Assembly (NCBI GenBank): GCA_964469225.1
Contig: CAYXYC010000001.1
Span: 27,556 to 91,555, forward strand
Length of the DNA stretch: 64,000 nt
Origin: an uncultured Candidatus Saccharibacteria bacterium
GTDB lineage: Bacteria > Patescibacteriota > Minisyncoccia > Phycocordibacterales > UBA9973
Direction: 5' to 3'
The notes under the pieces were generated by a model, which searched no databases, was not told the origin of the DNA, and saw nothing but the letters and a program-made list of their open reading frames with translations. Shown here in pieces: positions 10,941-64,000 of the stretch. Both the position numbers and the translations under genes were made by a program. Every line of letters begins with the position of its first letter. The stretch's first letter is position 1.

Positions 10941-10999
10941 TCTGTGATTTTTGAGGATAAAAAGGGGATTTCTTGTTTAAAAATTGATATACTATTAGT

Positions 11000-13363: not shown

Positions 13364-13384
13364 TTAAATAATTTATTAACATGA

Positions 13385-14721: not shown

Positions 14722-14743
14722 TCTCGTGATAGAATAAAGATAT

Positions 14744-15178
14744 ATGCAATTTAAGGTTCCACAATTCATTGATATTGAGGATACATTGTTTGGGCCATTT
14801 ACCTTTCGTCAATTCGCCTACCTTGTTGGTGGAGGAGGAATGATTTTTGTATTGTATAAATTGTTACCTTTTTGGATTGCCATTTTCTTTATTCTTCCAA
14901 TCGGAATTTTGACTGGACTTTTAACTTTTTACAAAATCAACAACAAGCCTTTTATTTATTACCTCCAAGCGGGTATTAGTTATGCGCTCACTAGTAAACT
15001 CTATGTCTGGAAACAGCGTCTCGTAAAACCAACACAGAAAAAAGAAGAGGGGAAACCGATTGCCGAGACACCCACTGTTCCAGTCCTCTCATCAAGCAAG
15101 TTGTCTGACTTGGCATGGGGTCTTGATATGCCGACAGAAGAAACGCAAGCAACCGAAAATCAAAAACCATTAAGGTAA
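14744..15178 (+). CDS. VirB3/PrgI-like small membrane protein (two TM helices)
   Basis: 144 aa with two hydrophobic helices (GGGGMIFVLYKLLPFWIAIFFILPIGILTGLL), immediately upstream of the VirB4-like ATPase, as in Gram-positive T4SS (Tn916 orf17 / PrgI). Confidence 0.5.
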   Translation: MQFKVPQFIDIEDTLFGPFTFRQFAYLVGGGGMIFVLYKLLPFWIAIFFILPIGILTGLLTFYKINNKPFIYYLQAGISYALTSKLYVWKQRLVKPTQKKEEGKPIAETPTVPVLSSSKLSDLAWGLDMPTEETQATENQKPLR

Positions 15179-15199
15179 TGTGATATAATAATTTTATAT

Positions 15200-15838
15200 A
15201 TGGCACTCGACGCTCGCGCTGCGCAAGAATTCGTTCCAATTAAAGAAGTTCGTGATGGCATCATTATTCTCAAAGATGGTGGTCTTCGAGCGATTCTAAT
15301 CGCATCATCAATAAACTTATCGCTCAAATCATCTGACGAACAAATTGCCATCATTAATCAATTTCAAAATTTTTTGAATGGACTTGATTTTCCAACACAG
15401 ATTGTTATGCAGTCACGACGACTTGATATCCGACCATATCTCCTGATGCTTGAAAATCGTATCAAAGAACAAACAGAGCAACTCATTAAAATCCAAACCC
15501 GAGAATATATTAATTTCATCCGATCGTTCACTGATGAGGTAAACATCATGACCAAAACATTTTTCGTTGTTGTACCTTACACACCCGCAATCTTAAAATC
15601 AGGCGGTATTATTGAAAATATAATCGGCGGACGATCTAGTTCAGAAAACAAAAAGCAGGGAGATACAGCGGATTTTGAAGAAAAAAGATCACAACTTGAT
15701 CAGCGAGTGAGTGTTATTATGGGAGGATTGGGTAGTCTTGGTATTCGCAGTTCACAACTCAAAACAGAAGAAGTCGTTGAACTCTTCTATAAAACATTCA
15801 ACCCAGGAGATATTAGTCAGGGTATTCAATTAGAATAA
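15200..15838 (+). CDS. VirB4/TraE-like ATPase, N-terminal domain (separate ORF)
   Basis: EFVPIKEVRDGIIILKDGGLRAILIASSINLSLKSSDEQIAIINQF resembles the conserved N-terminus of Gram-positive VirB4 proteins (Tn916 Orf16 / TcpF / PrgJ), recalled from memory. Stop TAA lies 1 nt before the ATG of the next ORF. Confidence 0.5.
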   Translation: MALDARAAQEFVPIKEVRDGIIILKDGGLRAILIASSINLSLKSSDEQIAIINQFQNFLNGLDFPTQIVMQSRRLDIRPYLLMLENRIKEQTEQLIKIQTREYINFIRSFTDEVNIMTKTFFVVVPYTPAILKSGGIIENIIGGRSSSENKKQGDTADFEEKRSQLDQRVSVIMGGLGSLGIRSSQLKTEEVVELFYKTFNPGDISQGIQLE

Positions 15839-15839
15839 T

Positions 15840-17687: not shown

Positions 17688-17726
17688 TCCATTGTTTAGG
17701 GTTCGGGAATAGCATATAATAAAAGG

Positions 17727-18695
17727 GTGATTCGTATTTCTCGAACATTATTAATATGTACTATGCTTGCCATCTTTGGCGGAGTAGTGCATTTTTCTTC
17801 GGCAGCAATTGATATTGGAGGAGACGATATTGTAGTAACCGTTTCGCCACAATCTCCTCATGGATACCAAGACACAACAATTACACTTTCGAGCTATGCG
17901 ACAAACTTGAGCCTCGCTTCTATTGAGTGGAAAAAAGATGGGACACCGGTTCTGTCTGGTTTTGGAAAAACAACATATTCATTCAAAACAGGCGCGAGCG
18001 GTACCCCAATTCGTGTCACTATTACAATTGCTCTTTCAGAAGGAATCCAACTTTCAAAAGAAATTCTTATAACACCATCTGATCTCGATATTTTCTGGGA
18101 AGCACGCGATAGTTACACTCCACCATTTTATAAAGGCAAGGCTCTTCCATCATCAGAAGCAGTAATTAAAGTTGTTGCAATTCCAGCCCAAACAAAAAGC
18201 ACATTATCATATTCTTGGAAACAAAATTCATCATCAATTCCTCAATCAAGCGGATACAAGAAAAACACCCTCCTTGTTGTGAATGATATTTTACAATCAG
18301 CTGAAACCGTTTCTGTTGATGTAGCAAGTTCTGATGGCGCGTATGGAGCATCAGCAAATGTTGTTATTCCAATTGTAAGTCCAGACCTTGAGTTTTACAA
18401 AAAAACAGCAGACCAGGGAATCCTCTATGCGCAAGTGCTTGGTAGTGAAACAACACTTGAAGGGGATGATTTAAGTATTGTAGCTGAACCGTATTTTCTA
18501 AATCTTTATGATAAGAAAATGGCTTATAATTATCAATGGAAAATTAATGATCAAGATATCACAACACCCGTAGAACGAAATGAATTAACTATTCAACCGA
18601 ATTCACGCGGGGGGTATACATTGGTTGGGCTTTTGGTTGAAGAATCTAATTCATTATTTCAAAAAATCAGTCGCGTGCTTCGTGTAAATTTTTAA
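17727..18695 (+). CDS. secreted beta-rich repeat protein
   Basis: Signal-like N-terminus (LLICTMLAIFGGVVHFSSAA); internal ~100-aa repeats. Confidence 0.45.
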   Translation: MIRISRTLLICTMLAIFGGVVHFSSAAIDIGGDDIVVTVSPQSPHGYQDTTITLSSYATNLSLASIEWKKDGTPVLSGFGKTTYSFKTGASGTPIRVTITIALSEGIQLSKEILITPSDLDIFWEARDSYTPPFYKGKALPSSEAVIKVVAIPAQTKSTLSYSWKQNSSSIPQSSGYKKNTLLVVNDILQSAETVSVDVASSDGAYGASANVVIPIVSPDLEFYKKTADQGILYAQVLGSETTLEGDDLSIVAEPYFLNLYDKKMAYNYQWKINDQDITTPVERNELTIQPNSRGGYTLVGLLVEESNSLFQKISRVLRVNF

Positions 18696-18696
18696 T

Positions 18697-20112
18697 ATGA
18701 AATATATTTTTTCTTTATTTATTTTATCAATCTTTGTAACCCCTTTTGCGGGAATTGTTTCGCAAGCCGAATCTGCTAACGATTGCAAGGTTCTTTCAGC
18801 AGAATGGAGTCAATCAGGAGATATGCCTAGTGGGTGGTTTAAGGAAGAACGAACCCCGATTAACATAATAACCAAAACACAAGGATGTGTTGGACAAGAA
18901 CTTAATTTGAGTATTTTTGAGGGAGATACATGTGGGATTGAGTGTGACGATGACCTTGTTGGCTTTTACCGTAGACCAATTCTTGTGCCAACAGACAATT
19001 TCTCGGTAAGAATTGGTCTTGGGGAAGACGAATGTGAAGCTGGTGCAACTGCTTCTATTGGGTATGATTGCCATTTGTTTTTCTATTGGCGAAACAATGC
19101 GATGGATCTTCTTTATAATTCATGGCACAAGGTAAGTGGTGATCTTTTTTATGAGTGTGATGGCCTTTGTGATACTGATCCAATACTTGTTTCTATTATT
19201 CCAAACGGAAACACAACAACACGGGTTAGTGTTGATCCTAATAAATCAACGGGTGTTCACAAAGAAGTTTATAATCTTCTAGCGCCTATTGGAGACCTGA
19301 GGTGTATTGATGATGGATCAGGAACACCTGGTACAAACTGCGTGAAGGGTGGCGCTGGGGTATATTTAAATACAATTTTCAAAATTGCTATTGGGCTTGC
19401 AGCAGCACTTGCTGTTGTTATGATTGTTATTAATTCTGTTTCATATATGGGAGATGAATCAGTTTTTGGTAGAACAGAAGCAAAGAGCAAAATTCTCTCT
19501 GCTATTGGCGGACTACTACTTGCACTTGGCGCATATGCATTACTAAACACTATTAATCCAGCGCTGACAGGCGTAGGTGGGGTACAAATTGACCAAGTGG
19601 TTGCTGAGGTGGATGAAGACCCTATTCTTGAAGATAGCCCAAATCTTGTTCTCCAAACTGGAGCAATTGCTCGTTGCCCTGACGGAATATCAAAAACCAT
19701 TACAAAGGGCGGAACATTCTATGTTTGTAATTCTCTTGTTGGGCGATTTAAAACGATGATAGAAGACGCCTGGTCACAAGGAATTAAAATCTCTGGTGGA
19801 GGATTCCGAACCAAAGAGGCGCAAATTGCCCTTCGAACAAAAAACTGTGGTGGATCAGGAAATGTATATAATTCAAACGCAAAATGTACTCCCGTAACAG
19901 CCGTTCCTGGTACATCAATGCACGAGAGCGGAATGGCTTTTGATTTTAAGTGTGACGGAAAACTTATTAATATTGGTACTGGTCGAAAAAATAAGTTCGC
20001 AATTAATGCAAGCACAAAAAAATGTTTTGACTGGCTGTCGTCGAATGCCGGAAAATACGGACTAAAAAATCTGCCAAGTGAAAATTGGCACTGGTCAACT
20101 AACGGTAAATAA
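18697..20112 (+). CDS. secreted Cys-rich protein with internal two-helix membrane hairpin and C-terminal peptidase M15 (VanY/DD-carboxypeptidase-like) domain
   Basis: Signal peptide, about 20 Cys in the N-domain, two adjacent hydrophobic helices (IAIGLAAALAVVMIVINSV / AIGGLLLALGAYALLNTI). C-terminal motifs GGFRTKEAQ and SMHESGMAFD (SxHxxGxAxD), ENWHW. Confidence 0.6.
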   Translation: MKYIFSLFILSIFVTPFAGIVSQAESANDCKVLSAEWSQSGDMPSGWFKEERTPINIITKTQGCVGQELNLSIFEGDTCGIECDDDLVGFYRRPILVPTDNFSVRIGLGEDECEAGATASIGYDCHLFFYWRNNAMDLLYNSWHKVSGDLFYECDGLCDTDPILVSIIPNGNTTTRVSVDPNKSTGVHKEVYNLLAPIGDLRCIDDGSGTPGTNCVKGGAGVYLNTIFKIAIGLAAALAVVMIVINSVSYMGDESVFGRTEAKSKILSAIGGLLLALGAYALLNTINPALTGVGGVQIDQVVAEVDEDPILEDSPNLVLQTGAIARCPDGISKTITKGGTFYVCNSLVGRFKTMIEDAWSQGIKISGGGFRTKEAQIALRTKNCGGSGNVYNSNAKCTPVTAVPGTSMHESGMAFDFKCDGKLINIGTGRKNKFAINASTKKCFDWLSSNAGKYGLKNLPSENWHWSTNGK

Positions 20113-20115
20113 TTT

Positions 20116-21393
20116 ATGCCACGAAAAACAATAATTATTTTCATATCGGTCTTTCTGGTCATTGGTGGAGGAATTTTTATCTACTCTCGTTTTGTTTCAA
20201 CGCCAACACAAAACACAAACACCACACAAAATGGAGACTATAGACCATTTGGATCTACGACAGAAAACGGATCAGGGAGTATCTCTGGAGTTATTTCTCA
20301 AACCATCAACACAATTTTGGGTGGGGTAGGACTTTCGTCTGACGCAAATCGTTTCCAAAAAATAACAGATTTTCCTATTGCTGGAGTGACATTCTTTATT
20401 GATACTCGAAAGGTTGAGCAGTCACAACAAGCAACAAACCCCGACGGAACAGCAACACAGACAGCAGGTGATGCCCAGTTTGTTTCTGTGCCATCACTCC
20501 GCTTTGTTAATCGAATCACCGGACATCTTCACCAGATGTATTTAGACACAAAAATATCAGGCGTTGTTTCAAACTCAACAATTCCTTCTATCCATGAGGC
20601 ACTATTTGCAAACAACGGTAAAACTGTTTTTTATAGATACCTTGATACTGACAACAAAACAATAAACACCTTCACTGCAACACTTGGTGCAAATCGTGGT
20701 GAATTTATGCCAGATAATATTCTTAATATGAGTGTGTCATCCGATGGTCAGAAAGTATTTTATATTACAAAAGATGCAAATGGTGTTCGTGGTGCAATTA
20801 AAAACATCACAACAGCTAAAAAATCAGATATTTGGTCATCACCGCTCTCTGAGTGGACTTCAAAATGGGGGAAGGGAGAAACGGTCTATCTAACAACAAA
20901 ACCTTCCCAGCTTGCAAATGGAGGACTCTGGAGTCTCAACACCATAACAGGCGCAACAACAAAAATATTAACGGGAATACCTGGTCTTACAACACTCACG
21001 AGTCCTGATGGGAACAGTGTGCTATATAGTATCTCAACAACAAATGGACCTCGCCTTGGCATCTATTCAATCAAAAAAAATGAATCCACCGATCTTTCAA
21101 TATATGGACTACCAGAGAAGTGTATTTGGACAAAATCATCTCTATCTATTTATTGTGCTTCACCAACTGGAATACAAAGTGGTTTGTATCCAGATGATTG
21201 GTATAAAGGAGTAACATCATTTGCTGACCGATTTATTCGCATCAATATTGATACAAATACAATTGATACTGTTTCTGAGGGACCAGAAACTGAAATAGTT
21301 GATGGAACAAATCTAATTCTAAACGACACAGAAAAAATACTTTTCTTCACAAACAAAAAAGACTCCGCACTATGGAGCCTCTCTCTTGAATAA
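20116..21393 (+). CDS. membrane-anchored hypothetical protein, possible beta-propeller ectodomain
   Basis: N-terminal TM (IIIFISVFLVIGGGIFIY), then a T/N-rich linker and repetitive beta-rich sequence. Confidence 0.4.
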   Translation: MPRKTIIIFISVFLVIGGGIFIYSRFVSTPTQNTNTTQNGDYRPFGSTTENGSGSISGVISQTINTILGGVGLSSDANRFQKITDFPIAGVTFFIDTRKVEQSQQATNPDGTATQTAGDAQFVSVPSLRFVNRITGHLHQMYLDTKISGVVSNSTIPSIHEALFANNGKTVFYRYLDTDNKTINTFTATLGANRGEFMPDNILNMSVSSDGQKVFYITKDANGVRGAIKNITTAKKSDIWSSPLSEWTSKWGKGETVYLTTKPSQLANGGLWSLNTITGATTKILTGIPGLTTLTSPDGNSVLYSISTTNGPRLGIYSIKKNESTDLSIYGLPEKCIWTKSSLSIYCASPTGIQSGLYPDDWYKGVTSFADRFIRINIDTNTIDTVSEGPETEIVDGTNLILNDTEKILFFTNKKDSALWSLSLE

Positions 21394-23350: not shown

Positions 23351-23481
23351 ATTAGGAAATATATAACAAAATCAGTCATTATGCAATGTTTTGTTTCGTA
23401 TGTTACTATCCACACATTATTAACAGGTTAATCCAGATATTGAATAAATCCCTGTTTTCAAATGAGAGTATACTAGAATGT

Positions 23482-24828
23482 ATGAATACAAAAGAATTAT
23501 GGAACAGCTGTCTTTCTGATATTGAACTTGGTATTTCAAAAGCCAATTTTACAACATGGTTCAAAAATACTCTGATTGTAAAAGAAGACGCTGGAACAAT
23601 TTATGTTGGTGTACCAAATGAGTTTGTAAAAGATTGGCTTTACAATAAATTCCATAAATTAATTTTGAAAACCCTTATGGGCTACGAAGAGAGTGTTAGG
23701 AGTGTTGAATATATTATTCACAAGCACGAGGCTGGTACGCGACCATCATACAACGAACCTGTAAAAAATATAATAAACAAAGAACTTCCACTTAACGACC
23801 TTTATACCAACAAAGAAGATAATTTGAATCCTAAATATACATTTGATTCCTTTATTGTTGGGCCATTTAATGAACTCGCCTATGCTGTTTCGCAGGCAAT
23901 TATTTCAAATCCAGGGCATGGATATAATCCATTCTTTGTTTATGGGGGAACGGGCTTAGGTAAAACGCACATGATTCAAGCAATCGGAAATGCTATAAAA
24001 AAGAATTACCCCGATAAAAAAATCTATTATGTAAGTCTTGAAAAATTCACTATTGATTATGTGAACTCAATTCAAAGTAAAAACCCAAACTCATTCAAAG
24101 AAAAATACAGAAAATATGATGTCATCATAATGGATGATATCCAATTTATTACAGGAAAAGACCGAACCCAAGAAGAGTTATTTCATTTGTTTAATATCTT
24201 TTATGAAAATAATAAACAAATTATATTTTCATCTGATAAACACCCTAATTTTATTCAAGGACTTGAAGAGAGGCTCCAGTCTCGCTTTGCATCTGGTATG
24301 ACGGTTCAAATAACAGAACCAGATTATGAGTCACGAATTGCAATTATTAAAGCAAAATTTGAATCAACAAATTGTATTATTGAGCGAGAAGTTGTGGAAT
24401 ATCTTGCTGAAGCCCTAGAAGGGAACATTCGAGAACTCGAAGGAAGCCTAAACACAGTTGTAATGCAATCACAATTAAAAAATAAAGCCTTGTCTCTTAA
24501 TGAAGTAAAAACCCTTATAAAAAACAACATAAAACCAAAGAAAACAGTTGCAATAAAAGACATTGTTCAGTGTATTGCTGAATATTACAATATTTCTGAA
24601 TCAATAATTTACGAAAAAACAAGACGAAAAGAAATTGTTAGAGCGCGACAGGTTGCGATGTATTTATTGCGTGAAGATTTTAATATTTCCTATCCTTTAA
24701 TTGGACAAAAAATGGGAGGAAGAGATCACACAACTGTTATTCACTCACATTTAAAAATAAAAGATGATATAAAAACAGACCCGTCGTTATTACAAGAAAT
24801 AGAAAAAATTCGCATTTTATTTAAGTAG
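23482..24828 (+). CDS. dnaA: chromosomal replication initiator DnaA
   Basis: AAA+ Walker A GGTGLGKTHMIQAIGN; C-terminal DNA-binding domain (RDHTTVIHSHLKI). Start chosen at MNTKELWNS; the ORF track extends 32 codons further upstream to 23386. Confidence 0.9.
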   Translation: MNTKELWNSCLSDIELGISKANFTTWFKNTLIVKEDAGTIYVGVPNEFVKDWLYNKFHKLILKTLMGYEESVRSVEYIIHKHEAGTRPSYNEPVKNIINKELPLNDLYTNKEDNLNPKYTFDSFIVGPFNELAYAVSQAIISNPGHGYNPFFVYGGTGLGKTHMIQAIGNAIKKNYPDKKIYYVSLEKFTIDYVNSIQSKNPNSFKEKYRKYDVIIMDDIQFITGKDRTQEELFHLFNIFYENNKQIIFSSDKHPNFIQGLEERLQSRFASGMTVQITEPDYESRIAIIKAKFESTNCIIEREVVEYLAEALEGNIRELEGSLNTVVMQSQLKNKALSLNEVKTLIKNNIKPKKTVAIKDIVQCIAEYYNISESIIYEKTRRKEIVRARQVAMYLLREDFNISYPLIGQKMGGRDHTTVIHSHLKIKDDIKTDPSLLQEIEKIRILFK

Positions 24829-25043
24829 TGAATAAGGTGTGGAAAACAGTGTTAATTAAAAATTATAATTTGTGGGTAAAAAAACTTTCTACCCATAAAT
24901 AAAAGTTACCAACAAAAAAGTTATTACAAGCACAACAGGAAATGTAATAAATAATCTTATTTTTAAATCTTATTTTTTGAATCCACACAATCCACACCAT
25001 TAATAGTAGTAATAATGTATTTATATAAATAATACCCACATAT
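24829..25043. promoter_or_regulatory. putative oriC: AT-rich dnaA-dnaN spacer with five DnaA-box-like 9-mers
   Basis: tgtgggtaa (rc TTACCCACA), tacccata, two aatccacac, tacccacat, plus very AT-rich stretches. A further CTATCCACA box upstream of dnaA at 23406-23414. Confidence 0.6.
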
Positions 25044-26141
25044 ATGAAATTTGAATGTTCAATAGAAAAAATAAAAAATGCACTCATTACCGTTGAGAGA
25101 GTAACAGGTAAAAATTTAACCCTTCCTGTTCTCGGAAGTATTTTATGGGTTGCAAGTGGTAAAACAATAAAACTACGCGCAACAAACTTGAGTGTTGGTA
25201 TTGAAATATCGCTTGATGCAAAAATAGAAAAAGAGGGTGTTGTTGCTATTCGGGGTGATATTCTTTCATCATTATTTTCTGTTCTATCTGGTGATTCAAA
25301 AGTTTCTTTTGAGTTGATTGATCAAACACTATCAGTAAAAACAAAAACAAGTACTATTCTTATTAAAACTGTTCCCCATGAAGATTTTCCAACAATACCA
25401 GTTGTTTCAGGTGATGAATATACTATTCCATCAAAAAAAATTACCGACGGAATAAAAGCGGTTTCGTATGCTGCTTCAATTTCTGAAATAAAACCAGAAA
25501 TTGGAAGTATTTATATTTATCCAGAAGATGACACACTTGTTTTTGTTGCAACAGATTCGTTTCGTCTTGCAGAAAAGAAAGTTAAAATAAAAAATAAAGT
25601 TTCATTTGATGGTATTTTATTTCCTCTTAAAAACGCTCTTGAATATATAAAAGCATTTGATTCTGTTGAAGATGATGTATTAATTACATTTCAAAAAAAC
25701 CAAATTGCTATTAAATCAGAATCTATTTATTTTACAACAAGAGTTATTGATGGAGCCTTTCCTGACTACAAACAGATTATTCCTAAAAAACCAACAACAG
25801 AAGCTATTGTTTTAAAACAAGATTTAATATCGTCTCTTAAAATATCAAACATATTTACTGATAAATTAAACCAAATTTCTTTTACAATTAGACCTCAAGA
25901 TAAGGTTTTTGAAATAGAATCAAAAAACGCTGATGTTGGTGAAAACACAACATTTATTGGAGGACAACTAACCGGTGAAGAAGTATCCGCAAACTTTAAT
26001 TATAAATATATTATTGATTCATTTAGTTCATTATCTGGAGATAGTCTTAAGCTTGAATTAAATGGAAACAATAAACCCATGATTTTGAGAGCCGTTGGTG
26101 ATGTTTCGTTTATGTATTTAATTATGCCAATGAATCGTTAA
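25044..26141 (+). CDS. dnaN: DNA polymerase III beta sliding clamp
   Basis: 365 aa, position immediately after dnaA, three-domain beta-clamp-like composition. Confidence 0.85.
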   Translation: MKFECSIEKIKNALITVERVTGKNLTLPVLGSILWVASGKTIKLRATNLSVGIEISLDAKIEKEGVVAIRGDILSSLFSVLSGDSKVSFELIDQTLSVKTKTSTILIKTVPHEDFPTIPVVSGDEYTIPSKKITDGIKAVSYAASISEIKPEIGSIYIYPEDDTLVFVATDSFRLAEKKVKIKNKVSFDGILFPLKNALEYIKAFDSVEDDVLITFQKNQIAIKSESIYFTTRVIDGAFPDYKQIIPKKPTTEAIVLKQDLISSLKISNIFTDKLNQISFTIRPQDKVFEIESKNADVGENTTFIGGQLTGEEVSANFNYKYIIDSFSSLSGDSLKLELNGNNKPMILRAVGDVSFMYLIMPMNR

Positions 26142-45572: not shown

Positions 45573-45619
45573 TGTGTTGCGAAATGGGTTTGCATAGTGT
45601 AGATTGTGTTGGTGTAATT

Positions 45620-45691
45620 GGTCCCGTCGTTCAATGGATAGGACGTAACTTTGCGGAAGTTATGATGCAGGTTCGATTCCTGCCGGGATCA
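45620..45691 (+). tRNA. tRNA-Arg (anticodon GCG as read)
   Basis: GGTCCCG acceptor / GTTC D-stem / TAACT-TTGCGGA-AGTTA anticodon arm (G37) / GCAGG-TTCGATT-CCTGC T-arm / CGGGATC-A. Its 3' 15 nt are repeated 4.1 kb downstream. Confidence 0.7.
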
Positions 45692-47180
45692 CCCCATAGG
45701 AATTAGAGGTCAGAAATGTCTCTTTTACTTTGAAAAGACTACATATTTCTGCGGTTCGAAATTTTTCTCCGTCAAAGGTGATACCTTTTGGAAAATCGAA
45801 CCACTGTAACTGAATTTTTTCATTCGGTTCTGCTAAAGCCCATGTATTACCAGGGTTTTTTAGGAAGTCGGCAATAAAATCGAGCATGGCTTCAATCCCA
45901 ACAAATTCCTGTGACGAACCTGTTATGGCCGCATTTGCTTTCAGCAGTTCTGATTCTATATACCCCAATTGTTCACGCAAAATACTATCGGTAATTACTC
46001 CGTCAAGGTTTTTCTGAATGAGTATTCTTTGTTTTTGCTTCAGGTTGCTGATATGTTGTTCAAGTTGCTTCGATTCCTTTTGCTCGGTTTCCTGTTCCCC
46101 GATGAGGTGTTTTTTAATAAGTTTGTAGAACTTGTCATAATGCTTGTCATTCAGACTAAACTTGTTTAAAAAACTTTTAAATTCATTCTCGAATGTTTCT
46201 TTTCTAAAGTTAGCAAATTTGATATGTAGGAAACGGTAATATGGATACATGGTGCTTCTGCCTTTAGCCCAACAACCCGTCAACTTGGTGCCTGTTGAAT
46301 GACTAACAAATCGCCTTAATGGAAAGTCAGGGTGTTCGGTCAGATACTTGAAATTTCTACGGGTACGATGTTTGACTACTTGCTGTACCTGTTCGAATAA
46401 TTCCTCAGAGATAATTGGTTCATACAATCCTTTGTGCCGTTCTCCAAACTTCACTATCCATCCGGCATAAACTTCATTTCTGAGCATCATATAGAAATAT
46501 GATTTAACAATAGGCTTGCCGTTTCTGCTTTTTAATTCTTCTCGTATGGCCCATCTGTATATTTCTTCCACTGGAACGATATTTTGGGCGACTTGCTTAA
46601 ACACTTTTCGGACAAGTGGAGCAGTATCATTAGGAGCAATAGTAGCCTTGCCGTTAATCCTGCGGATATTGTCATATCCCACCGGGGCCATCCATACATA
46701 GCGACCTTCGCGCATTGCATCTTTCATTCCTTCAGAACATCGTTCAGCTCGTACCTCGTTATCAAACTGTCCGATACTGGAAATCATATTTTCCATTAAT
46801 CGGCCTGCCGGAGTATCTTCAATATGTTCAGTAGCAGATTCAACACCGACTCCATAGTTTTTTAAAATAATTTTCAAATGCCCATAGTCGTAATTCTGTC
46901 GTGAAAAACGGTCAATCTTATAAAAAATCACTGCACTGATGCGGTTTTTTGACAATGCACAATAATGAAGCAACCGTTGTAGTTCTGTACGGTTTTGAGT
47001 CTTGGCACTTTCTCCCTTTTCAAGAAAAATCTCAGCCACGTCATATCCATTTTTGAGAGCATATTCTTTACAAATACGTTCCTGCGAACTGAGACTATTC
47101 CCGTCATCAACTTGCTCCTTTGTCGATAGCCGGACACGATTTTTACATCCTGTCCGGTTTTTTATATACCCACAATTCAT
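45660..47180 (-). CDS. large serine recombinase (integrase) of the integrated element
   Basis: Catalytic-domain motifs RVRLSTKEQ (Ser nucleophile), SLSSQERICKEYALKNGY, ...IFYKIDRFSRQ, followed by recombinase and coiled-coil regions. The last 11 codons (…VIPAGIEPAS) are encoded by the complement of the tRNA-Arg 3' end. Confidence 0.8.
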   Translation of the reverse strand: MNCGYIKNRTGCKNRVRLSTKEQVDDGNSLSSQERICKEYALKNGYDVAEIFLEKGESAKTQNRTELQRLLHYCALSKNRISAVIFYKIDRFSRQNYDYGHLKIILKNYGVGVESATEHIEDTPAGRLMENMISSIGQFDNEVRAERCSEGMKDAMREGRYVWMAPVGYDNIRRINGKATIAPNDTAPLVRKVFKQVAQNIVPVEEIYRWAIREELKSRNGKPIVKSYFYMMLRNEVYAGWIVKFGERHKGLYEPIISEELFEQVQQVVKHRTRRNFKYLTEHPDFPLRRFVSHSTGTKLTGCWAKGRSTMYPYYRFLHIKFANFRKETFENEFKSFLNKFSLNDKHYDKFYKLIKKHLIGEQETEQKESKQLEQHISNLKQKQRILIQKNLDGVITDSILREQLGYIESELLKANAAITGSSQEFVGIEAMLDFIADFLKNPGNTWALAEPNEKIQLQWFDFPKGITFDGEKFRTAEICSLFKVKETFLTSNSYGVIPAGIEPAS

Positions 47181-47644
47181 CCAACCACGTATTATTAACT
47201 GTAAAATCACATTCAAAGAGAGCACTACTAGAGCGCAACATTTCATTTACAGGACAATCTTAAATAATACGATATGGTAAAACACACAATAGATATACTA
47301 CGGGACAAATAAAAAGAGGGGCCAACCCGTAGATTGAACCCCACCTTTGTAAAATTTTGCATTTACTTGAATCAAAGGAACTTGTAAATCCGATTCGTGT
47401 AAATTTTATCAAAGTAAAGCAATTCTTGCAAATTATCCAATAGGTGGGTTCAGATATGGCAGGGTTCCCTGCGGATGATCGTTCTTAGAGAGCGACCACC
47501 ATCCCATATTGCAAAGCTTCTTTTCTCAGAGTGCTTTCCGGCACCCTGTGTGTCATCAGTATTTCTGATACTGGTGGCGTGCGATGTAACCTGTCAGTCG
47601 GTATTTCAGTTCAGATTTTTAACAAATTTTTAAATAGTAATTAA

Positions 47645-48502
47645 ATGAAAAATAAAAATAAATTTTCAGATCAAATTAGTAAAGCTATCGGCACGATTAA
47701 GGAGTGCCTTAGGAAAATGACTGCCGAAGCTATTTACCTTGGTCAGCAACCGTTAGAAAATGCTGACCATACCATCTCCCTTGCTGATCGTGTAATGCCC
47801 ATTACCCGTATGGCGGAAATGCTCATTGCCGACATTGCACTTCTTCTTAATCCAAAACACGATAAAGCAGAACACAAGGTACTGCATATCCAGGCAAAAA
47901 TTATTGAGGATACACTGGACGAAAAAATCATTGAGGAAGAGAAACGTCTTAATTTGGAGGGGCGTGAAAAAAGTGATTTACTCAAACCCGGATTATTTTG
48001 CCTGTTATGGCTTGTATCAGCGGTAGCTTTGTATTGGGGTGAAGCACGCTTCCTAACCGATTCACTACAAGTTGTTGCAACGACTCGGGCAGATGCGCTA
48101 ACCTATGCAGTTGGGATTTGCATGGCTCTTATAATCATCAGTCATGGAGTACCAATGTTTATCAATATTTATCTTTCGAAACCATGGATTAGAAGAATTA
48201 GCCGTGTTTTTTTATTCCTGTTTGTCGTTGGAATATTTTATGGTCTGGGGTATTGGAGAAGTAAATATTTACATGATATGGGAAAGTCAGCCCCACCACC
48301 ATGGCAGTTTGCCATTTTTAATCTCGGATTTTTCATTGCCTTCTATACCGTAGCTGAACTGCTTCTTCTTCCGTACGCACCAGCCCTCTGGTCAGCTTGC
48401 AAGAAGTTTTGGATACGGTTACGAAAAGAATGGTTCGCAAGGCGAAAAGTAAAAGCAAAAAACAGTGTGGTTATAATACCTGAAAATTTAATCCAGAAAT
48501 AG
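47645..48502 (+). CDS. cargo membrane protein: N-terminal soluble domain plus C-terminal predicted 4-TM domain
   Basis: 285 aa; hydrophobic helices LFCLLWLVSAVALYW, VGICMALIIISHGVPMFINIYL, VFLFLFVVGIFYGLGYW, FAIFNLGFFIAFYTVAELLLL; no recognised family. Confidence 0.45.
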   Translation: MKNKNKFSDQISKAIGTIKECLRKMTAEAIYLGQQPLENADHTISLADRVMPITRMAEMLIADIALLLNPKHDKAEHKVLHIQAKIIEDTLDEKIIEEEKRLNLEGREKSDLLKPGLFCLLWLVSAVALYWGEARFLTDSLQVVATTRADALTYAVGICMALIIISHGVPMFINIYLSKPWIRRISRVFLFLFVVGIFYGLGYWRSKYLHDMGKSAPPPWQFAIFNLGFFIAFYTVAELLLLPYAPALWSACKKFWIRLRKEWFARRKVKAKNSVVIIPENLIQK

Positions 48503-48854
48503 ATTACAATGCCACAATTGCATCATAAATAGGATTTTTTAAAACCAAGGTTGCAAAGTTACAAAAAATCACTTTCTATCAATTAACCATTTTGTCCGAT
48601 GAATTAATACTATCGTTTAAATAGTCATATTGATAGTTGAATAATATTCTTACTTTTTTACACATTTCACTGCTTTTCAGTATAATATGTGGATAAAATG
48701 TTTTAACTTTCAAGAAAATTTCAATGAATATTCAATTGATTAAATTATATAAAAAAACAGGGCAAGCTTGCAGGCTTAACCCTGTTTATAATTTAATCAG
48801 GACTGACCAAGAGTCCTGTATTCACAATACCAAATATACCATGATTCCTCAGTT

Positions 48855-49523
48855 GTGCAAACTTTCATTATGGGGATTTATCCACTCTTCTTGGTCAGTT
48901 TTGAATGTAGAAGTTATATACCTCGAAAATCATTCAAATGGCTTATGGAACATAGTAATATTTCATGGAACCTGACGGATCACTCTGTGGTGGAAAATCA
49001 GTTGCTTTTTTTGCAAAGTAACTCCGAAGAAAGCATGTTTGTAACCACTCTAAAGGAGATTTGGCCAGAGAAGGATATTGCGGATTTGTTACCGGAAAAC
49101 AAAGTTCAACCTGAAGAGTTTTTTGCTCTTGTGGATGACTGTAAAGAAAAATGGGTTAGCTATAAAATCTTATGCGATACTCAGGAAGTGAATAATTTCT
49201 TAATTGGCTTAGTTGCACCTTTAAAATTATCCCCATTCGCAAACCTGTTAAAGTTAATCAAATCCAAAATTGACTTATCTGGCTTTACGAAACATCTTTC
49301 AAAGGTGGCGTCCGAACTCAATAGTGGTACTCCGGATCTTAGCAATAGATTAAGTGAAATTTTCCTTGTCGGAAAATCAATAAGTTTAGATGGCAAACTT
49401 CCATTTACTGTAACAGATACTCAAGCGGTGACCTTACTGGAATCTAATCCTGCCAATAAATTTACTGATTTACTTTTGTGCGTCATTATGGCATCAAAGA
49501 AATCAAAGGCATCCACATTCTGA
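48855..49523 (+). CDS. cargo hypothetical protein
   Basis: 222-aa ORF with no motif recognised; preceded by a TATAAT-like box and two hairpins. Confidence 0.35.
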   Translation: MQTFIMGIYPLFLVSFECRSYIPRKSFKWLMEHSNISWNLTDHSVVENQLLFLQSNSEESMFVTTLKEIWPEKDIADLLPENKVQPEEFFALVDDCKEKWVSYKILCDTQEVNNFLIGLVAPLKLSPFANLLKLIKSKIDLSGFTKHLSKVASELNSGTPDLSNRLSEIFLVGKSISLDGKLPFTVTDTQAVTLLESNPANKFTDLLLCVIMASKKSKASTF

Positions 49524-49621
49524 ATAACCTCATACTCTCTGCCAACTACTCCCAGTACCGTATCGGTAAGGGGAGGGAATTACACTTGGAGCTAGTAAAA
49601 TTGTTTTTGGAATCTTTTAAG

Positions 49622-49670
49622 TTCACAATATAAAAAGCTGAACTTCGGTTCGGCTTTTTATATTGTGGAA
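49622..49670. repeat. long perfect hairpin (17-bp stem extended by a 5-bp inner stem around a UUCG loop)
   Basis: ttcacaatataaaaagcTGAAC-ttcg-GTTCGgctttttatattgtgga. Confidence 0.6.
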
Positions 49671-50044
49671 ACGCGCGAGTAAACTACTTTACTCGCGCGC
49701 AGGAATCGAAAAGCTTTTCCATGTTTGCGATAGCAAACGGAAAAGGTGTACTGTTCGTGTAACGAAAGATTGTCCTGCCGGGATCACAAAGCATGTATTT
49801 TAAAATAGTCCCCTGCGGGACTATTTTTGCTTTGTGATGACCGCAGTGGTGTTTTGCCAGTAGGCAAAACCACGAGGGGCGGGCTGCGAAAATTTCGAAC
49901 GGCGGTGAGAAATTATTTGTAGCCACAAGTAAATATTTCGAGCAAGCAAACTGCTTTGCTTGCGTGCAGGAATCGAAAGACTGGTGTTGTTTTGATTACA
50001 AAACCACCAATCACGCGCCGTAGGCGAGATTACCCTGCCGAGGT

Positions 50045-50620
50045 TTAATTTACCTTATCTACCTCCTCCAACAACTCTGGGAATTCTTCTGTTCCCATAT
50101 CTTCAAAACAGAAATGCCCCATTTTTTCAAATGATACAACGCGTGCATCTTTTATTTTTTCTGTAAGAATTTTCACGCTCTCTTGTACATCTGCCATATC
50201 ATCGGTAGAACTGAAAATAGTAATACCTTTTGTTTTTGAAATAATATTTTCATCAATACCAAACTCAAACATTTTGCTTTGAAGTGAATGTGTTGGATCA
50301 ATCCATGGCGCAACGAGAATTACTTTGCCGACATGAATATCATGTTCGCTCAAATACCTGACAATAAATCCAGCCCCACACGAATGCCCGATGAGAATTG
50401 TTTCTGTGTCGAGTGGGAAATATTCAAATACCTGTTTCCATGCATCGTAATCAGGTGCATACGGATGAGGCATCTCCGGTGTCTGTGCGAGAATATCCTT
50501 GACTATGAGTTGTCGTTGTATCCAGGGAAGCCAGTGGGAGTTTGATGCGGCGCCGTTTCGGGCATCACGGTGTTCATTTTCGCTATCCCACATTCCATGA
50601 ATAATGATTGCTGTTTTCAT
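50045..50620 (-). CDS. alpha/beta-hydrolase-fold serine hydrolase (YdeN/RBBP9-like)
   Basis: GHSCGAG (GxSxG nucleophile elbow); 191 aa. Confidence 0.6.
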   Translation of the reverse strand: MKTAIIIHGMWDSENEHRDARNGAASNSHWLPWIQRQLIVKDILAQTPEMPHPYAPDYDAWKQVFEYFPLDTETILIGHSCGAGFIVRYLSEHDIHVGKVILVAPWIDPTHSLQSKMFEFGIDENIISKTKGITIFSSTDDMADVQESVKILTEKIKDARVVSFEKMGHFCFEDMGTEEFPELLEEVDKVN

Positions 50621-54132: not shown

Positions 54133-54395
54133 AGCATGATTGGGTGGGGGGAGGAAAAGAGAGAAAAGTAAATAATTTTAGGTGCAAAATTTTATTTTGG
54201 CGGAGGCGGTGAGATTCGGTCACGAATCACTAAGTATTTTATTTCGTTCTACTCATAAAATACAAAGTGTTCGCGACCCCGGCTCGACGACACCGACTAA
54301 TGTCGGCGTATACCGTCTGCGCCTTTCGAATCTCACAAGCATCCCTCAATGATAACAAAAAATAACTGGGCGAACCCAGTCATTTTTTGTCATTG

Positions 54396-54482
54396 CGGAG
54401 GCGGTGAGATTCGAACTCACGAGGAGCTTTCACCCCTGACAGTTTTCAAGACTGTTCCTTTCAACCACTCAGGCACGCCTCC
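54396..54482 (-). tRNA. tRNA-Ser (anticodon TGA), type II with long variable arm
   Basis: Reverse complement GGAGGCGTGCCTGAGTGGTTGAAAGGAACAGTCTTGAAAACTGTCAGGGGTGAAAGCTCCTCGTGAGTTCGAATCTCACCGCCTCCG. Confidence 0.8.
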
Positions 54483-58899: not shown

Positions 58900-58959
58900 G
58901 GCCCAGCAGAAAGGGTTGAATTATATTAAAAATATGATATTATTCGGCTGTGCTTTTAC

Positions 58960-59035
58960 GCGCGATTAGCTCAGTTGGTAGAGCAACCCGTTTACACCGG
59001 GAAGGTCGGGGGTTCAAGTCCCTCATCGCGCACCA
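58960..59035 (+). tRNA. tRNA-Val (anticodon TAC), CCA encoded
   Basis: GCGCGATTAGCTCAGTTGGTAGAGCAACCCGTTTACACCGGGAAGGTCGGGGGTTCAAGTCCCTCATCGCGCACCA. Confidence 0.85.
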
Positions 59036-59185
59036 AACTAACACCGAAGGTGTTGAGGAGGGGCTTGAAAGCCGGACTCCGACGCAGGTCGGAGGAGGCG
59101 GGGTAGCAGAATTTTTCAGCAGAAAAATATCTGTGACCAAGTCCCTCATCGCGCACATTATTGTGATACGATAGAACTATACATG

Positions 59186-63365: not shown

Positions 63366-63438
63366 GGTGCCTATAGTGTAATGGTTAGCACTAGAGTTTG
63401 TGGAACTCTCAGTTCGGGTTCAAATCCCGGTAGGCACC
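63366..63438 (+). tRNA. tRNA-His (anticodon GTG) with G-1
   Basis: G-GTGCCTA...AGAGT-TTGTGGA-ACTCT...GGGTTCAAATCCCGG-TAGGCAC-C. Confidence 0.8.
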
Positions 63439-64000
63439 CAATTTAGTATCTATTATAACTTTGCTTTTTTCTTTACTACTAAAGACTTTTTGTTGTTTTT
63501 GGTTCTTGTAAGTGATGATGTTTAGTCGCATCAATTCCTGAAATAGTGGGTGGTATCGCTCTTTTATTATAACGCCATCTACTACATCAAAACCATCAAA
63601 GAAAAAATCTATAAAGCGTTTCTGTAAGCCTTCTGATGCGTTCATGTATGTACCATAAATATCTTTAGTGAAATTCAAGACTTCACTAGCTCTTTCAATG
63701 TCAACGTCCTTAGCTTTCTTTAATTTACCAAGCCTTTCATGAATTTTATTAATCTCAGAATTTATTTCTTTAGTAATACGGCTGTAGCTCCCTTTTGGGA
63801 GTGTCTGGTCTAGTAATCGTTCTTCTGCAACTCTAAATTTAGCTTCCCAAGCATTCTTTTGGTTGATTAGCCTTCTTTGGTTTATATCGTACTCTTTTCT
63901 ACGCCCCAAAAATGTTGCTCTGACTTTCTCAATAATTGAGTTAACAAATCCAGATTCGAACTGTAAATCTTTGAATTTATCGGCCACTTGATTTTCGAGT
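63409..64000 (-). CDS. 3' portion of an ORF continuing beyond the window; possible recombinase C-terminal domain; last codons overlap tRNA-His
   Basis: Minus-strand ORF open to the window edge; ends ...GAYRDLNPN, encoded by the complement of the tRNA-His T-arm/acceptor. Same arrangement as the serine recombinase at tRNA-Arg. Confidence 0.4.
   Translation of the reverse strand, partial: LENQVADKFKDLQFESGFVNSIIEKVRATFLGRRKEYDINQRRLINQKNAWEAKFRVAEERLLDQTLPKGSYSRITKEINSEINKIHERLGKLKKAKDVDIERASEVLNFTKDIYGTYMNASEGLQKRFIDFFFDGFDVVDGVIIKERYHPLFQELMRLNIITYKNQKQQKVFSSKEKSKVIIDTKLGAYRDLNPN

What the first reader, a model, noticed from the sequence alone, without database searches (positions are those of the whole stretch)
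58960..59160. tRNA-Val followed by a ~100-nt hairpin-containing insert and an exact 19-nt copy of its own 3' end
caagtccctcatcgcgcac (tRNA-Val T-arm/acceptor, 59015-59033) recurs at 59140-59158, about 100 nt downstream. The intervening sequence has two neat hairpins (caccGAAGgtg; ctccgacGCAGgtcggag). This is the footprint expected after integration at the tRNA 3' end followed by loss of most of the element. Alternatively it is a miniature non-autonomous element or satellite carrying only att sites. Together with the tRNA-Arg island and the tRNA-Ser duplication, it suggests tRNA 3' ends are recurrent integration targets in this genome.
Basis: seen in the sequence. Interest (0 to 1): 0.5.

Follow-up and report, generated by a model that had tools for sequence, protein, structure and literature searches.

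The report
Structured mini-element behind tRNA-Val gene
The ~120-base insert after tRNA-Val is not random debris: it belongs to a previously undescribed family of tiny, strongly folded elements that sit behind tRNA genes in Paceibacteria (CPR bacteria), each with a stretch that base-pairs with its own tRNA's 3' end and a spare copy of that end.

Summary
tRNA-Val(TAC) lies at 58960-59035.

The 104-nt insert plus the copy folds into a three-way junction (z = -6.4). P1 pairs an internal "anti-T-arm" segment with the tRNA copy. P2 and P3 are hairpins.

The same module follows tRNA-Val in about 10 independent metagenome contigs and follows tRNA-Ser in this window. A third homolog lies at 49820-49941. 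Covariation is strong: 23 of 35 pairs show double changes, 0 of 500 shuffles reach the score, and G-U pairs outnumber A-C 37 to 8. No Rfam family matches.

Two contigs 95% identical to each other differ by a precise 117-nt presence/absence bounded by the repeat. Tandem arrays of diverged units occur. P1's 5' strand always matches the local tRNA.

Best reading: a miniature, gene-less integrative element with a conserved fold, in RNA or single-stranded DNA, that is moved in trans. It is not a random deletion scar and not a tRNA pseudogene.

The recombinase is not identified. Large serine recombinase islands at tRNA-Arg and tRNA-His in the window are only a lead. The function of the fold is unknown.

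The parts
58916..58943 (+). sigma-70-like promoter match (TTGAAT-16-TATTAT with TG) upstream of tRNA-Val
   Evidence: This is a consensus match only. No terminator-like site was found between tRNA-Val, the insert and tRNA-Arg, so co-transcription is plausible here.
58960..59035 (+). tRNA-Val(TAC), intact, with encoded CCA
   Evidence: ARAGORN; Rfam tRNA 68.6 bits
59015..59033 (+). repeat copy 1 (C56 to the base after the discriminator), part of the functional tRNA
59041..59053 (+). hairpin 1 (acacc GAA ggtgt). In other family members this is longer and often looks like a terminator.
59054..59066 (+). P1 5' strand ('anti-T-arm', TGAGGAGGGGCTT; with the following GAA it is complementary to the tRNA's TTCAAGTCCCTCATC)
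59067..59070 (+). junction J1/2, conserved GAAA
   Evidence: alignments
59071..59099 (+). P2: base GCC/GGC, conserved internal loop GGA/GA, variable hairpin ctccgac-gcag-gtcggag
   Evidence: The middle base pair of the P2 base is CG, AU, GC, UA or GU across members.
59100..59101 (+). junction J2/3, conserved GG
59102..59138 (+). P3: long hairpin with a conserved base (GGU.GC... / ...GUGACC) that abuts P1 with no unpaired base
   Evidence: The G-U pair at alignment columns 111/174 is kept in 11 of 12 sequences.
59138..59156 (+). repeat copy 2 (displaced tRNA 3' end); bases 59139-59151 form the P1 3' strand
59051..59156 (+). whole covariance-model match (three-way-junction module)
   Evidence: R1 101.4 bits; R2 93.7 bits
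54200..54343 (-). second family member, behind tRNA-Ser(TGA) (54395-54482, minus strand); P1 5' strand GTGAGATTCGAA, copy CGAATCTCACCGCCTCCGC at 54218-54200
   Evidence: 46.3 bits; 81.9 bits
49820..49941 (+). third homolog ('type 2'): the same P2-P3 core; P1 pairs GCTTTGTG with CACAAAGC at the end of the tRNA-Arg copy
   Evidence: 28.4 bits with filters off; sequence
49672..49790 (+). right end of the 4.1-kb tRNA-Arg(GCG) island, with the same layout (hairpin, anti-T GCAGGAATCGAA, GAAA, two hairpins, 15-nt tRNA copy) but not detected by the covariance model

Best explanation
The insert is a miniature, gene-less integrative element of a family that lives at tRNA 3' ends in Paceibacteria.

Shown. 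The unit is 117-123 nt, counting one copy of the repeat. It is a discrete insertion/deletion unit bounded by a 19-nt direct repeat of the tRNA from T-loop position C56 to just past the discriminator. The tRNA stays intact: the tRNA-proximal copy is followed by element sequence, which in L109 supplies an encoded CCA. The distal copy keeps the original downstream flank. The interior has a conserved fold specific to the tRNA-sense strand. That fold is hairpin 1, then a three-way junction in which P1 pairs a target-complementary 'anti-T-arm' segment with the tRNA copy. P2 carries a conserved GGA/GA loop. P3 stacks directly on P1, exactly at the edge of the repeat (GTGAC|C56). P1 changes with the tRNA (Val, Ser, an unknown tRNA in L123, and the tRNA-Arg end plus trailer) while the P2-P3 core stays homologous.

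Inferred. The element enters the tRNA gene by site-specific recombination, using an enzyme supplied in trans. It brings its own replacement tRNA 3' end and leaves the old one behind. New units stack up next to older ones. This resembles the cis-mobilizable elements (CIMEs) known from other bacteria, which are flanked by attL and attR and carry no genes. The conserved fold is needed for propagation. It may act as a folded recombination site, in which the P3-P1 stack rebuilds a duplex across the junction, or as an element-encoded RNA. The only candidate enzymes visible are the large serine recombinases integrated with the same geometry at tRNA-Arg(GCG) and tRNA-His in this window. This last step is weak.
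For: - **Repeat and fold in the window:**
- **Same architecture elsewhere:** about 10 independent tRNA-Val loci and tRNA-Ser in this window.
- **Covariation:** 89.4% of cells are paired, against 74% when shuffled and about 40% when the partner is slid. 23 of 35 pairs have changes on both sides. The score is 0.428 against 0.15, and 0 of 500 shuffles reach it.
- **Strand specificity:** G-U/U-G 37 against A-C/C-A 8.
- **Precise empty and occupied sites:** L002 and L109 are 95.5% identical over 1033 nt. They share the identical 20-nt spacer after the tRNA (L002) or after copy 2 (L109), and they differ by 117 nt. Other relatives have tRNA-Val and tRNA-Arg only 16-37 nt apart.
- **Tandem arrays of diverged units:** the outermost copy has decayed by one base in L115.
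- **P1 5' strand matches the local tRNA:** 17/17 in L104, 12/12 for Ser, 12/12 for Arg(GCG), and 8-10/8-10 for the type 2 trailers.
- **The tRNA-Arg(GCG) island:** a 528-aa large serine recombinase overlaps the tRNA 3' end, and the right end has the same layout.
- **Conservation level:** the insert is as conserved as the neighbouring RluA gene, 65-78% against 66-72% nucleotide identity.
Against: - **No recombinase in or next to any mini-element.** About 45 ORFs of the window (about 30 of its 36 ORFs of 200 aa or more) were scanned. Among them there is no tyrosine integrase, TnpB, IS110-type enzyme or reverse transcriptase, only the two serine recombinases.
- **The link to serine recombinases rests on one island.** Its right end is not detected by the covariance model. 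Seven loci with homologous recombinases (52-56% identity) have no scaffold.
- **No full-size element with this scaffold at tRNA-Val was found.**
- **Loss is not excluded.** Deletion between the 19-nt repeats could explain the empty site, so current mobility is not proven.
- **A circle of about 120 bp is a poor substrate** for double-strand recombination.
- **Ascertainment bias.** The metagenome pattern required an intact copy 2 and the GACC boundary, so the uniformity of those two features among the hits is partly by construction.
- **The covariation alignment was fitted to the model.**
Confidence: 0.55

Rival explanations
1. It is a structured non-coding RNA gene, or a tRNA 3'-trailer RNA, whose job is done as RNA. 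Possible roles are a ribozyme, a protein-binding RNA, or a mimic or sponge for the tRNA top half. It would be transcribed with or just after the tRNA. The duplication of the tRNA end would exist to provide the P1 3' strand. This can coexist with mobility.
For: The three-way junction has conserved junction bases (GAAA, GGA/GA, GG, GGUCGCG...GUGACC) and variable, covarying stems, which is typical of functional RNAs. The fold is strand-specific and always in the tRNA sense. In the window a promoter-like site precedes tRNA-Val and no terminator separates tRNA-Val, the module and tRNA-Arg. Conservation equals that of a housekeeping gene. Type 2 members keep the helix between the tRNA trailer and the module through compensatory changes.
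Against: In several members a terminator-like hairpin with a T-run lies between the tRNA and the module, with no promoter-like site after it. No Rfam family, including all known small ribozymes, matches any member. A host RNA gene does not explain tandem arrays of diverged units, presence/absence within 95%-identical genomes, or retargeting of P1 to different tRNAs. No expression data are available.
Confidence: 0.25
2. It is a deletion scar: a larger island once sat between the repeats and most of it was lost, leaving non-functional debris.
For: A full-size island with the same geometry exists at tRNA-Arg(GCG) in the same window. The right end of that island has the same order of parts.
Against: All of about 10 independent tRNA-Val loci carry the same compact unit, with no variable remnants of cargo. 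Base pairs covary and junction bases are conserved across genomes whose RluA proteins are only about 70% identical. Neutral debris would be unalignable at that distance.
Confidence: 0.05
3. It is a decayed tandem duplicate of tRNA-Val, that is, a tRNA pseudogene.
For: The last 19 nt are tRNA sequence, and the segment GGGGCTTGAAAG loosely resembles GGGGGTTCAAGT.
Against: The tRNA model gives no hit in 59036-59160 even at E = 10. The resemblance is to the complement of the T-arm, not to the T-arm itself: 12/12 for Ser and Arg, 17/17 in L104. The interior is a conserved non-tRNA three-way junction shared with the tRNA-Ser element.
Confidence: 0.02
4. It is a nucleic-acid-guided element. The anti-T-arm segment would be a programmable guide, either in RNA or in folded single-stranded DNA. 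Comparable systems are integron attC sites or the CTX phage attP, IS200/IS605 guide-target pairing, and bridge RNAs. The guide would specify which tRNA is invaded, with an unidentified partner enzyme.
For: The same P2-P3 core is combined with different P1 sequences that each match the local target: Val, Ser, the L123 tRNA, and the Arg end plus trailer. P3 and P1 abut with no unpaired base exactly at the repeat boundary, so the fold rebuilds a duplex across the junction. Structure rather than sequence is conserved in the stems, and the fold is strand-specific.
Against: No partner protein was found. P1 complementarity is also what any RNA fold needs once the tRNA copy is its 3' strand. Some members have imperfect P1, for example L003 and L113 with CGAG where CTCG is expected. 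There is no experimental or junction-read evidence.
Confidence: 0.13

Closest known systems
tRNA-targeting integrative elements / genomic islands (attL = rebuilt tRNA, attR = displaced tRNA 3' end)
   Same: There is a direct repeat running from a tRNA loop to the 3' end. The element supplies the replacement 3' end, so the tRNA stays functional. Occupied and empty sites are precise. Tandem accretion occurs at one tRNA.
   Different: The unit is only about 100 nt between the repeats and has no integrase and no cargo. The interior is a conserved folded module rather than genes. No T-stem 5'-like core lies next to the junction.
Cis-mobilizable elements (CIMEs), as described for ICESt1/ICESt3-related elements in Streptococcus thermophilus (from my own knowledge, not checked in the paper library)
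   Same: Both are flanked by att sites and lack recombination and transfer genes. Both lie in tandem with larger elements at the same site. The array at tRNA-Arg(GCG) consists of the island, a type 2 unit and a decayed unit.
   Different: CIMEs are kilobases long and are plain deletion derivatives. This family is about 0.1 kb, has a covarying structure, and is retargeted to several tRNAs. No cognate autonomous element for tRNA-Val was found.
Folded single-strand recombination sites: integron attC and the CTX phage attP(+) hairpin (from my own knowledge)
   Same: Structure rather than sequence is conserved. The fold is strand-specific, with conserved unpaired bases. The fold creates the duplex that is recombined.
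   Different: Those sites are simple hairpins used by tyrosine recombinases (IntI, XerCD). Here the fold is a three-way junction at a tRNA, and no such enzyme is linked to it. Nothing shows that the DNA, rather than the RNA, is what folds.
Guide-bearing transposon RNAs (IS110 bridge RNA, TnpB omega/reRNA) (from my own knowledge)
   Same: A conserved scaffold is joined to a variable segment that matches the target. The scaffold is followed directly by about 19 nt identical to the target.
   Different: No IS110 or TnpB gene is adjacent, and none was found among the ORFs scanned in the window. The 'guide' is paired within the scaffold. There is no Rfam similarity.
Large serine recombinase islands at tRNA-Arg(GCG) and tRNA-His in the same window
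   Same: The tRNA 3' part is duplicated from the T-loop onward. The recombinase gene's 3' end overlaps the rebuilt tRNA end. The right end of the Arg island has a hairpin, an anti-T segment, GAAA, two hairpins and the copy.
   Different: These islands are kilobases long and carry genes. The right-end unit is not detectably homologous by the covariance model. Homologous recombinases elsewhere lack scaffolds.

Membership tests
tRNA-inserted integrative element (genomic island type) | Direct repeat of the tRNA 3' part flanking the inserted DNA, with the tRNA kept intact | tested here: met
   The 19-nt exact repeat lies at 59015-59033 and 59138-59156, and the tRNA is intact.
tRNA-inserted integrative element (genomic island type) | Integrase or recombinase gene inside the element | tested here: not met
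   Only 104 nt lie between the repeats. ORFs overlapping it are spurious overlaps with the tRNA.
tRNA-inserted integrative element (genomic island type) | Precise occupied versus empty site in close relatives | tested here: met
   L109 (occupied) and L002 (empty) are 95.5% identical and differ by a 117-nt indel bounded by the repeat, with an identical downstream spacer.
Cis-mobilizable element (CIME) | Flanked by attL and attR but lacking recombination and transfer genes | tested here: met
Cis-mobilizable element (CIME) | A related autonomous element uses the same att site and can mobilise it | tested here: inconclusive
   Serine recombinase islands occur at tRNA-Arg(GCG) and tRNA-His, not at tRNA-Val. 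The right end of the Arg island has the same layout but gets no covariance-model hit. All 10 tRNA-Val elements found are mini forms.
Cis-mobilizable element (CIME) | Excision or transfer demonstrated | not testable with these tools
   This needs junction reads or experiments.
Known RNA families, including small self-cleaving ribozymes (Rfam 15) | Match to a curated covariance model | tested here: not met
   Nothing but tRNA appears at gathering score. No consistent weak hit falls on the module in the window or in 7 other loci at E up to 5-10.
tRNA pseudogene / tandem tRNA duplicate | Residual cloverleaf, or similarity to the 5' two-thirds of the tRNA | tested here: not met
   There is no tRNA-model hit in 59036-59160. 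The interior is homologous to the module behind tRNA-Ser.
MITE-like transposon | Terminal inverted repeats plus a target-site duplication, with copies dispersed in the genome | tested here: inconclusive
   The P1 strands form an inverted repeat, and the 19-nt repeat could be read as a duplication. However, copies are found only at tRNA 3' ends, and the inverted repeat changes with the tRNA.
Folded single-strand att site (integron attC / CTX attP type) | Strand-specific conserved structure with variable sequence | tested here: met
Folded single-strand att site (integron attC / CTX attP type) | Associated tyrosine recombinase (IntI or XerCD) and recombination of the folded strand | not tested
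   No tyrosine recombinase was seen among the window ORFs scanned. The rest of the genome could not be searched.
Guide RNA of IS110 / TnpB-type elements | Encoded next to the recombinase or nuclease gene of the same element | tested here: not met
   The neighbours are host genes: PilM-like, RluA, L19 and malic enzyme. No such gene was found among the ORFs scanned in the window.

The most novel reading that the evidence does not exclude
The family may be a programmable, nucleic-acid-guided mobile element. A conserved ~100-nt scaffold, acting as RNA or as folded single-stranded DNA, would use its anti-T-arm helix strand to select a tRNA gene. The P3-P1 stack would rebuild the recombination site across the junction. 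Retargeting would then need only a change of that strand plus the carried tRNA end. The partner enzyme, whether a host or element recombinase, is still unknown.
Probability: 0.13. Interest if true: 0.9.

Novelty: new variant of a known kind. Interest (0 to 1): 0.62.

Why it matters
CPR bacteria have tiny genomes, and few of their non-coding features are understood. This is a compact element that recurs across related lineages and is under clear structural selection. It is tied to tRNA genes and is absent from Rfam. If it is a non-autonomous integrative element, it is among the smallest known, and it shows how tRNA genes in these genomes are repeatedly rebuilt by incoming DNA. If the target-matching helix really specifies the insertion site, it would be a new programmable targeting principle. 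Its parts are defined precisely enough here to test directly. It also explains a class of partial tRNA repeats that annotation pipelines would otherwise call pseudogenes or assembly noise.

Tried and rejected
- **The genome-contig scan was wasted.** An RluA alignment returned generic RluA genes from all bacteria and no close relatives.
- **Viral-contig scans gave little.**
  - The tRNA-Val copy pattern gave 0 hits.
  - The serine recombinase protein gave no relatives.
  - The P3-plus-boundary pattern gave 4 loci, of which only L123 is real; its neighbours are host-like genes.
  - The P2 pattern gave 3 chance hits.
- **BLAST of the insert** against the phage and plasmid collections found no match.
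- **A hammerhead reading of the junction was rejected.** GAAA together with CUGAC/GUGAC looked suggestive, but the junction strand lengths and the CUGANGA core do not fit, and no Rfam hammerhead, twister, pistol or hatchet model hits.
- **Resemblance to RNase P conserved region I** (GAGGAAAGUCCGG) was considered and dropped as too short and unsupported.
- **A TnpB / IS605-type right end with a flanking guide** was considered, but no such gene was found among the ORFs scanned.
- **Testing the serine recombinase link** with homologs gave no scaffold in seven loci. Only L118 sits at a tRNA (tRNA-Ala), and its island runs beyond the 9 kb fetched.
- **Two of the 12 metagenome hits** (L106, L110) were chance matches in GC-rich coding DNA.
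- **Literature searches** found no description of this element. The paper on group I introns in Patescibacteria tRNA genes does not mention it.

Full report
**1. The observation**

ARAGORN and Rfam place an intact tRNA-Val(TAC) at 58960-59035. The 19-mer CAAGTCCCTCATCGCGCAC occurs exactly twice in the 64-kb window, at 59015-59033 inside the tRNA and at 59138-59156. Even allowing 3 mismatches, no shuffle gave two matches, and the expected count is 0.01.

The repeat starts at T-loop position C56 and ends one base after the discriminator. The bases on either side differ.

The insert plus the second copy (59034-59160) folds at -53.7 kcal/mol, against -32.7 +/- 3.3 for dinucleotide shuffles, z = -6.4. 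The fold is a three-way junction:

- **P1** pairs an internal segment (59054-59066) with the second tRNA copy.
- **P3** (59102-59138) is an AU-rich hairpin that abuts P1 with no unpaired base.

**2. Host and neighbourhood**

The neighbouring genes are a PilM-like protein, an RluA-type pseudouridine synthase, ribosomal protein L19 and a malic enzyme. The best RluA homologs are named Candidatus Paceibacterota or Patescibacteria. The window therefore comes from a CPR bacterium. An independent assembly (L001) carries the same sequence, so this is not an assembly artefact.

**3. Relatives**

Loci were fetched by RluA synteny. In most lineages tRNA-Val and tRNA-Arg(TCT) lie 16-37 nt apart: L002, L007-10, L093 and L096-103. 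L003 (RluA 70% identical) has the same arrangement as the window. It has tRNA-Val, an insert of about 110 nt, and a 21-nt copy of the tRNA end. The T-loop A-to-G difference between the two tRNAs is present in both copies.

A metagenome scan for GACC plus the tRNA copy gave 12 loci. Ten are real and two are chance hits in GC-rich coding DNA. One real locus re-finds L003, and two others overlap each other. All real hits show the same order of parts:

- tRNA-Val
- a variable hairpin, often terminator-like
- a segment complementary to the tRNA's T-loop, T-stem and acceptor 3' strand (for example GCGATGAGGGACTTGAA in L104, a 17/17 complement)
- GAAA
- P2 with a GGA/GA internal loop
- GG
- P3 with the conserved base GGUCGCG...CGUGACC
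- the tRNA copy starting at C56

Caveat: the search pattern required an intact copy and the GACC boundary. The uniformity of those two features among these hits is therefore partly by construction. The window, L003 and the tRNA-Ser element were found independently of the pattern.

**4. The same module at other tRNAs**

A k-mer screen of the window's seven tRNAs showed 3'-end copies for Val, Ser and Arg(GCG). Behind tRNA-Ser (54395-54482, minus strand) the layout is the same:

- a terminator-like hairpin
- GTGAGATTCGAA, a 12/12 complement of the Ser T-loop and T-stem
- AAGG
- P2
- GAGCCGGGGTCGCGA
- P3
- GTGAC
- a 19-nt copy of the Ser 3' end

A covariance model built from five Val scaffolds only (R1) finds this Ser element at 46.3 bits, E about 7e-9. 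A second model (R2) scores it at 81.9 bits. The models also find:

- second units in tandem in L115 and L113
- a member in the contig L123 whose P1 matches a different tRNA end (CAAATCCCTCCCC)
- 'type 2' members that keep the P2-P3 core but pair their 5' strand with the very end of a tRNA plus its trailer

The type 2 pairings are CACAAAAGC/GCTTTTGTG in L007-10, CACAAAAGAG/CTCTTTTGTG in L003, CACAAACG/CGTTTGTG in L091, and CACAAAGC/GCTTTGTG at window 49820-49941.

**5. The fold is under selection and is strand-specific**

The test used 12 distinct sequences aligned to the model.

| Measure | Observed | Shuffled | Partner slid |
|---|---|---|---|
| Cells forming standard pairs | 89.4% | 74% | about 40% |
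| Covariation score | 0.428 | 0.15 | 0.05-0.08 |

Twenty-three of 35 pairs show changes on both sides, and no shuffle of 500 reaches any of the measures. The middle pair of the P2 base is CG, AU, GC, UA or GU. A G-U pair in P3 is kept in 11 of 12 sequences. Across paired cells, G-U/U-G outnumber A-C/C-A by 37 to 8. The structure therefore belongs to the tRNA-sense strand as RNA or single-stranded DNA, not to duplex DNA.

The alignment was fitted to the model, which inflates the paired percentage. The size of the gap to both controls and the compensatory changes are nevertheless clear. No Rfam family matches the module in the window or in seven other loci, even at permissive thresholds.

**6. 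It is a discrete insertion/deletion unit**

L002 (empty) and L109 (occupied) are 95.5% identical over 1033 nt of tRNA copy, spacer, tRNA-Arg and RluA. In L002 the tRNA is followed by TAGAAAAACGTAGTATCCTT. In L109 that same 20-mer follows the second copy, while the tRNA itself is followed by element sequence beginning CA, which gives an encoded CCA. The difference is exactly 117 nt: one insert plus one repeat.

Arrays also occur. L115 has tRNA, E1, copy, E2, copy, with very different E1 and E2 and one mismatch in the outermost copy. L113 has three units. These facts show repeated insertion at tRNA ends over time. The L002/L109 pair alone cannot tell a recent gain from a loss by deletion between the repeats.

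**7. Possible machinery**

The tRNA-Arg(GCG) gene (45619-45694) is followed by a 4.1-kb island that ends in a 15-nt copy of its 3' end at about 49776-49790. The island encodes a 528-aa large serine recombinase whose 3' end overlaps the tRNA's 3' end. A second such recombinase overlaps the 3' end of tRNA-His at the window's edge.

The right end of the Arg island has the same order of parts as the mini-elements:

- a hairpin
- GCAGGAATCGAA, a 12/12 complement of the Arg T-loop and T-stem
- GAAAA
- two hairpins
- the tRNA copy

Its first hairpin and that of the decayed unit at 49939 share a loop motif with hairpin 1 of Val elements in L113 and L123. No extra tRNA copy lies between the cargo and this unit, so the unit appears to be the island's own end.

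The link is weak, however:

- The covariance model does not detect that unit.
- Seven loci with homologous recombinases have neither a tRNA nor a scaffold.
- L118 sits at tRNA-Ala, but its island exceeds the DNA fetched.
- About 45 ORFs of the window were scanned against Pfam, about 30 of them among its 36 ORFs of 200 aa or more. None is a tyrosine integrase, TnpB, IS110-type enzyme or reverse transcriptase.

**8. RNA or DNA?**

In the window a promoter-like site precedes tRNA-Val. No terminator separates tRNA-Val, the module and tRNA-Arg, so the module is probably transcribed here. In other members, such as the tRNA-Ser element and L114 (L107 by eye), a terminator-like hairpin with a T-run lies between the tRNA and the module, and no promoter-like site follows it. 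These data cannot decide whether the fold acts as RNA or as folded single-stranded DNA.

One structural point stands out. P3 and P1 share a continuous strand with no unpaired base exactly at the boundary of the repeat (GTGAC|C56). The fold therefore rebuilds a quasi-duplex across the junction, with P2 branching off the other strand. This recalls folded single-strand recombination sites such as integron attC and CTX attP. That comparison rests on my own knowledge and is an analogy, not a test.

**9. Verdict**

The 'scar of a lost island' reading is rejected, and so is the 'tRNA pseudogene' reading. The 'miniature non-autonomous element' reading is supported and sharpened. The insert belongs to a family of ~100-200-nt elements at tRNA 3' ends that recurs across related Paceibacteria lineages. 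Each element carries a replacement tRNA end, a hairpin, and a conserved three-way junction whose first helix matches the local tRNA.

- The closest known concept is the gene-less, att-flanked cis-mobilizable element.
- The tiny size, the covarying fold and the target-matched helix have no described counterpart that I could find.
- The enzyme and the role of the fold are unknown.
- The insert is about as conserved as the adjacent housekeeping gene: 65-78% against 66-72% nucleotide identity.

I rate it a new variant of a known kind. There is a modest chance (about 0.13) that it uses a genuinely new, guide-based targeting mechanism.

Noticed in passing
window 45619-49790: A 4.1-kb island follows tRNA-Arg(GCG). 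It carries a 528-aa large serine recombinase (47246..45660, minus strand) whose 3' end overlaps the tRNA 3' end, then 2-3 ORFs with no Pfam match and a terminator. It ends in a structured unit and a 15-nt copy of the tRNA end.
   Followed up: partly
window 63367-64000 (L001 10110-11750): A second large serine recombinase (532 aa in L001) overlaps the 3' end of tRNA-His in the same way. The far end of this island lies outside the window and outside L001.
   Followed up: partly
window 49939-50045: A decayed further unit (hairpin, TGCAGGAATCGAAAG, hairpins, degenerate copy GATTACCCTGCCGAGG) lies downstream of the type 2 scaffold. The tRNA-Arg(GCG) locus is therefore an array of at least three units plus the island.
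   Followed up: partly
L007 2540-2700 (minus strand), also L008-L010: A different small element lies behind tRNA-Arg(TCT). It has AAGGAATCGAAAAGG (complement of the Arg T-loop), one hairpin, then a 21-nt copy TTCGATTCCTCGCGGGGGCAC. The logic is the same but the interior is unrelated. L007 also has a copy of the 5' end of tRNA-Val upstream of that tRNA (2905-2935).
   Followed up: no
L113 1-230 (minus strand): Units E2 and E3 behind tRNA-Val have another interior type, and the tRNA identity reaches TTCGAGTCC (boundary GTTT|CGAG instead of GTGAC|C). Several unrelated small elements therefore share the 'anti-T plus copy' design.
   Followed up: no
L007-10, L091, L093, L094, L100 versus the window: The tRNA-Val / tRNA-Arg(TCT) pair upstream of RluA is inverted, split or duplicated in different relatives. 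Examples are both genes on the minus strand, divergent orientation, and Arg-Val-Arg in L100. This suggests frequent recombination at these tRNA genes.
   Followed up: no
L003 5034-6446: A diversity-generating retroelement (bAvd plus reverse transcriptase) is inserted between RluA and the L19 gene in this relative. It is absent from the window.
   Followed up: no
L007-L010 4329-5003: An ORF with a faint LAGLIDADG hit lies between the L19 gene and tRNA-Leu in some relatives.
   Followed up: no
window 23386-26141: dnaA and dnaN lie next to a low-GC stretch (GC 0.29 at 24-26 kb), and cumulative GC skew rises from here on. This is probably the replication origin region.
   Followed up: no
window 9441-21393: A run of large ORFs has no Pfam match, apart from a TraG/VirB4-like P-loop ATPase (15840-17687) and a VanY-domain protein (18697-20112). 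It may be a secretion or DNA-uptake cluster.
   Followed up: no
L113, L115, L107, L114, L003: first 15-30 nt after the tRNA-Val: A recurrent motif (A)AAGTAAGCGATAG lies between the tRNA end and hairpin 1. It resembles the start of P2 in type 2 scaffolds (GGAGCGATAA) and may be a vestige of an older truncated unit.
   Followed up: no
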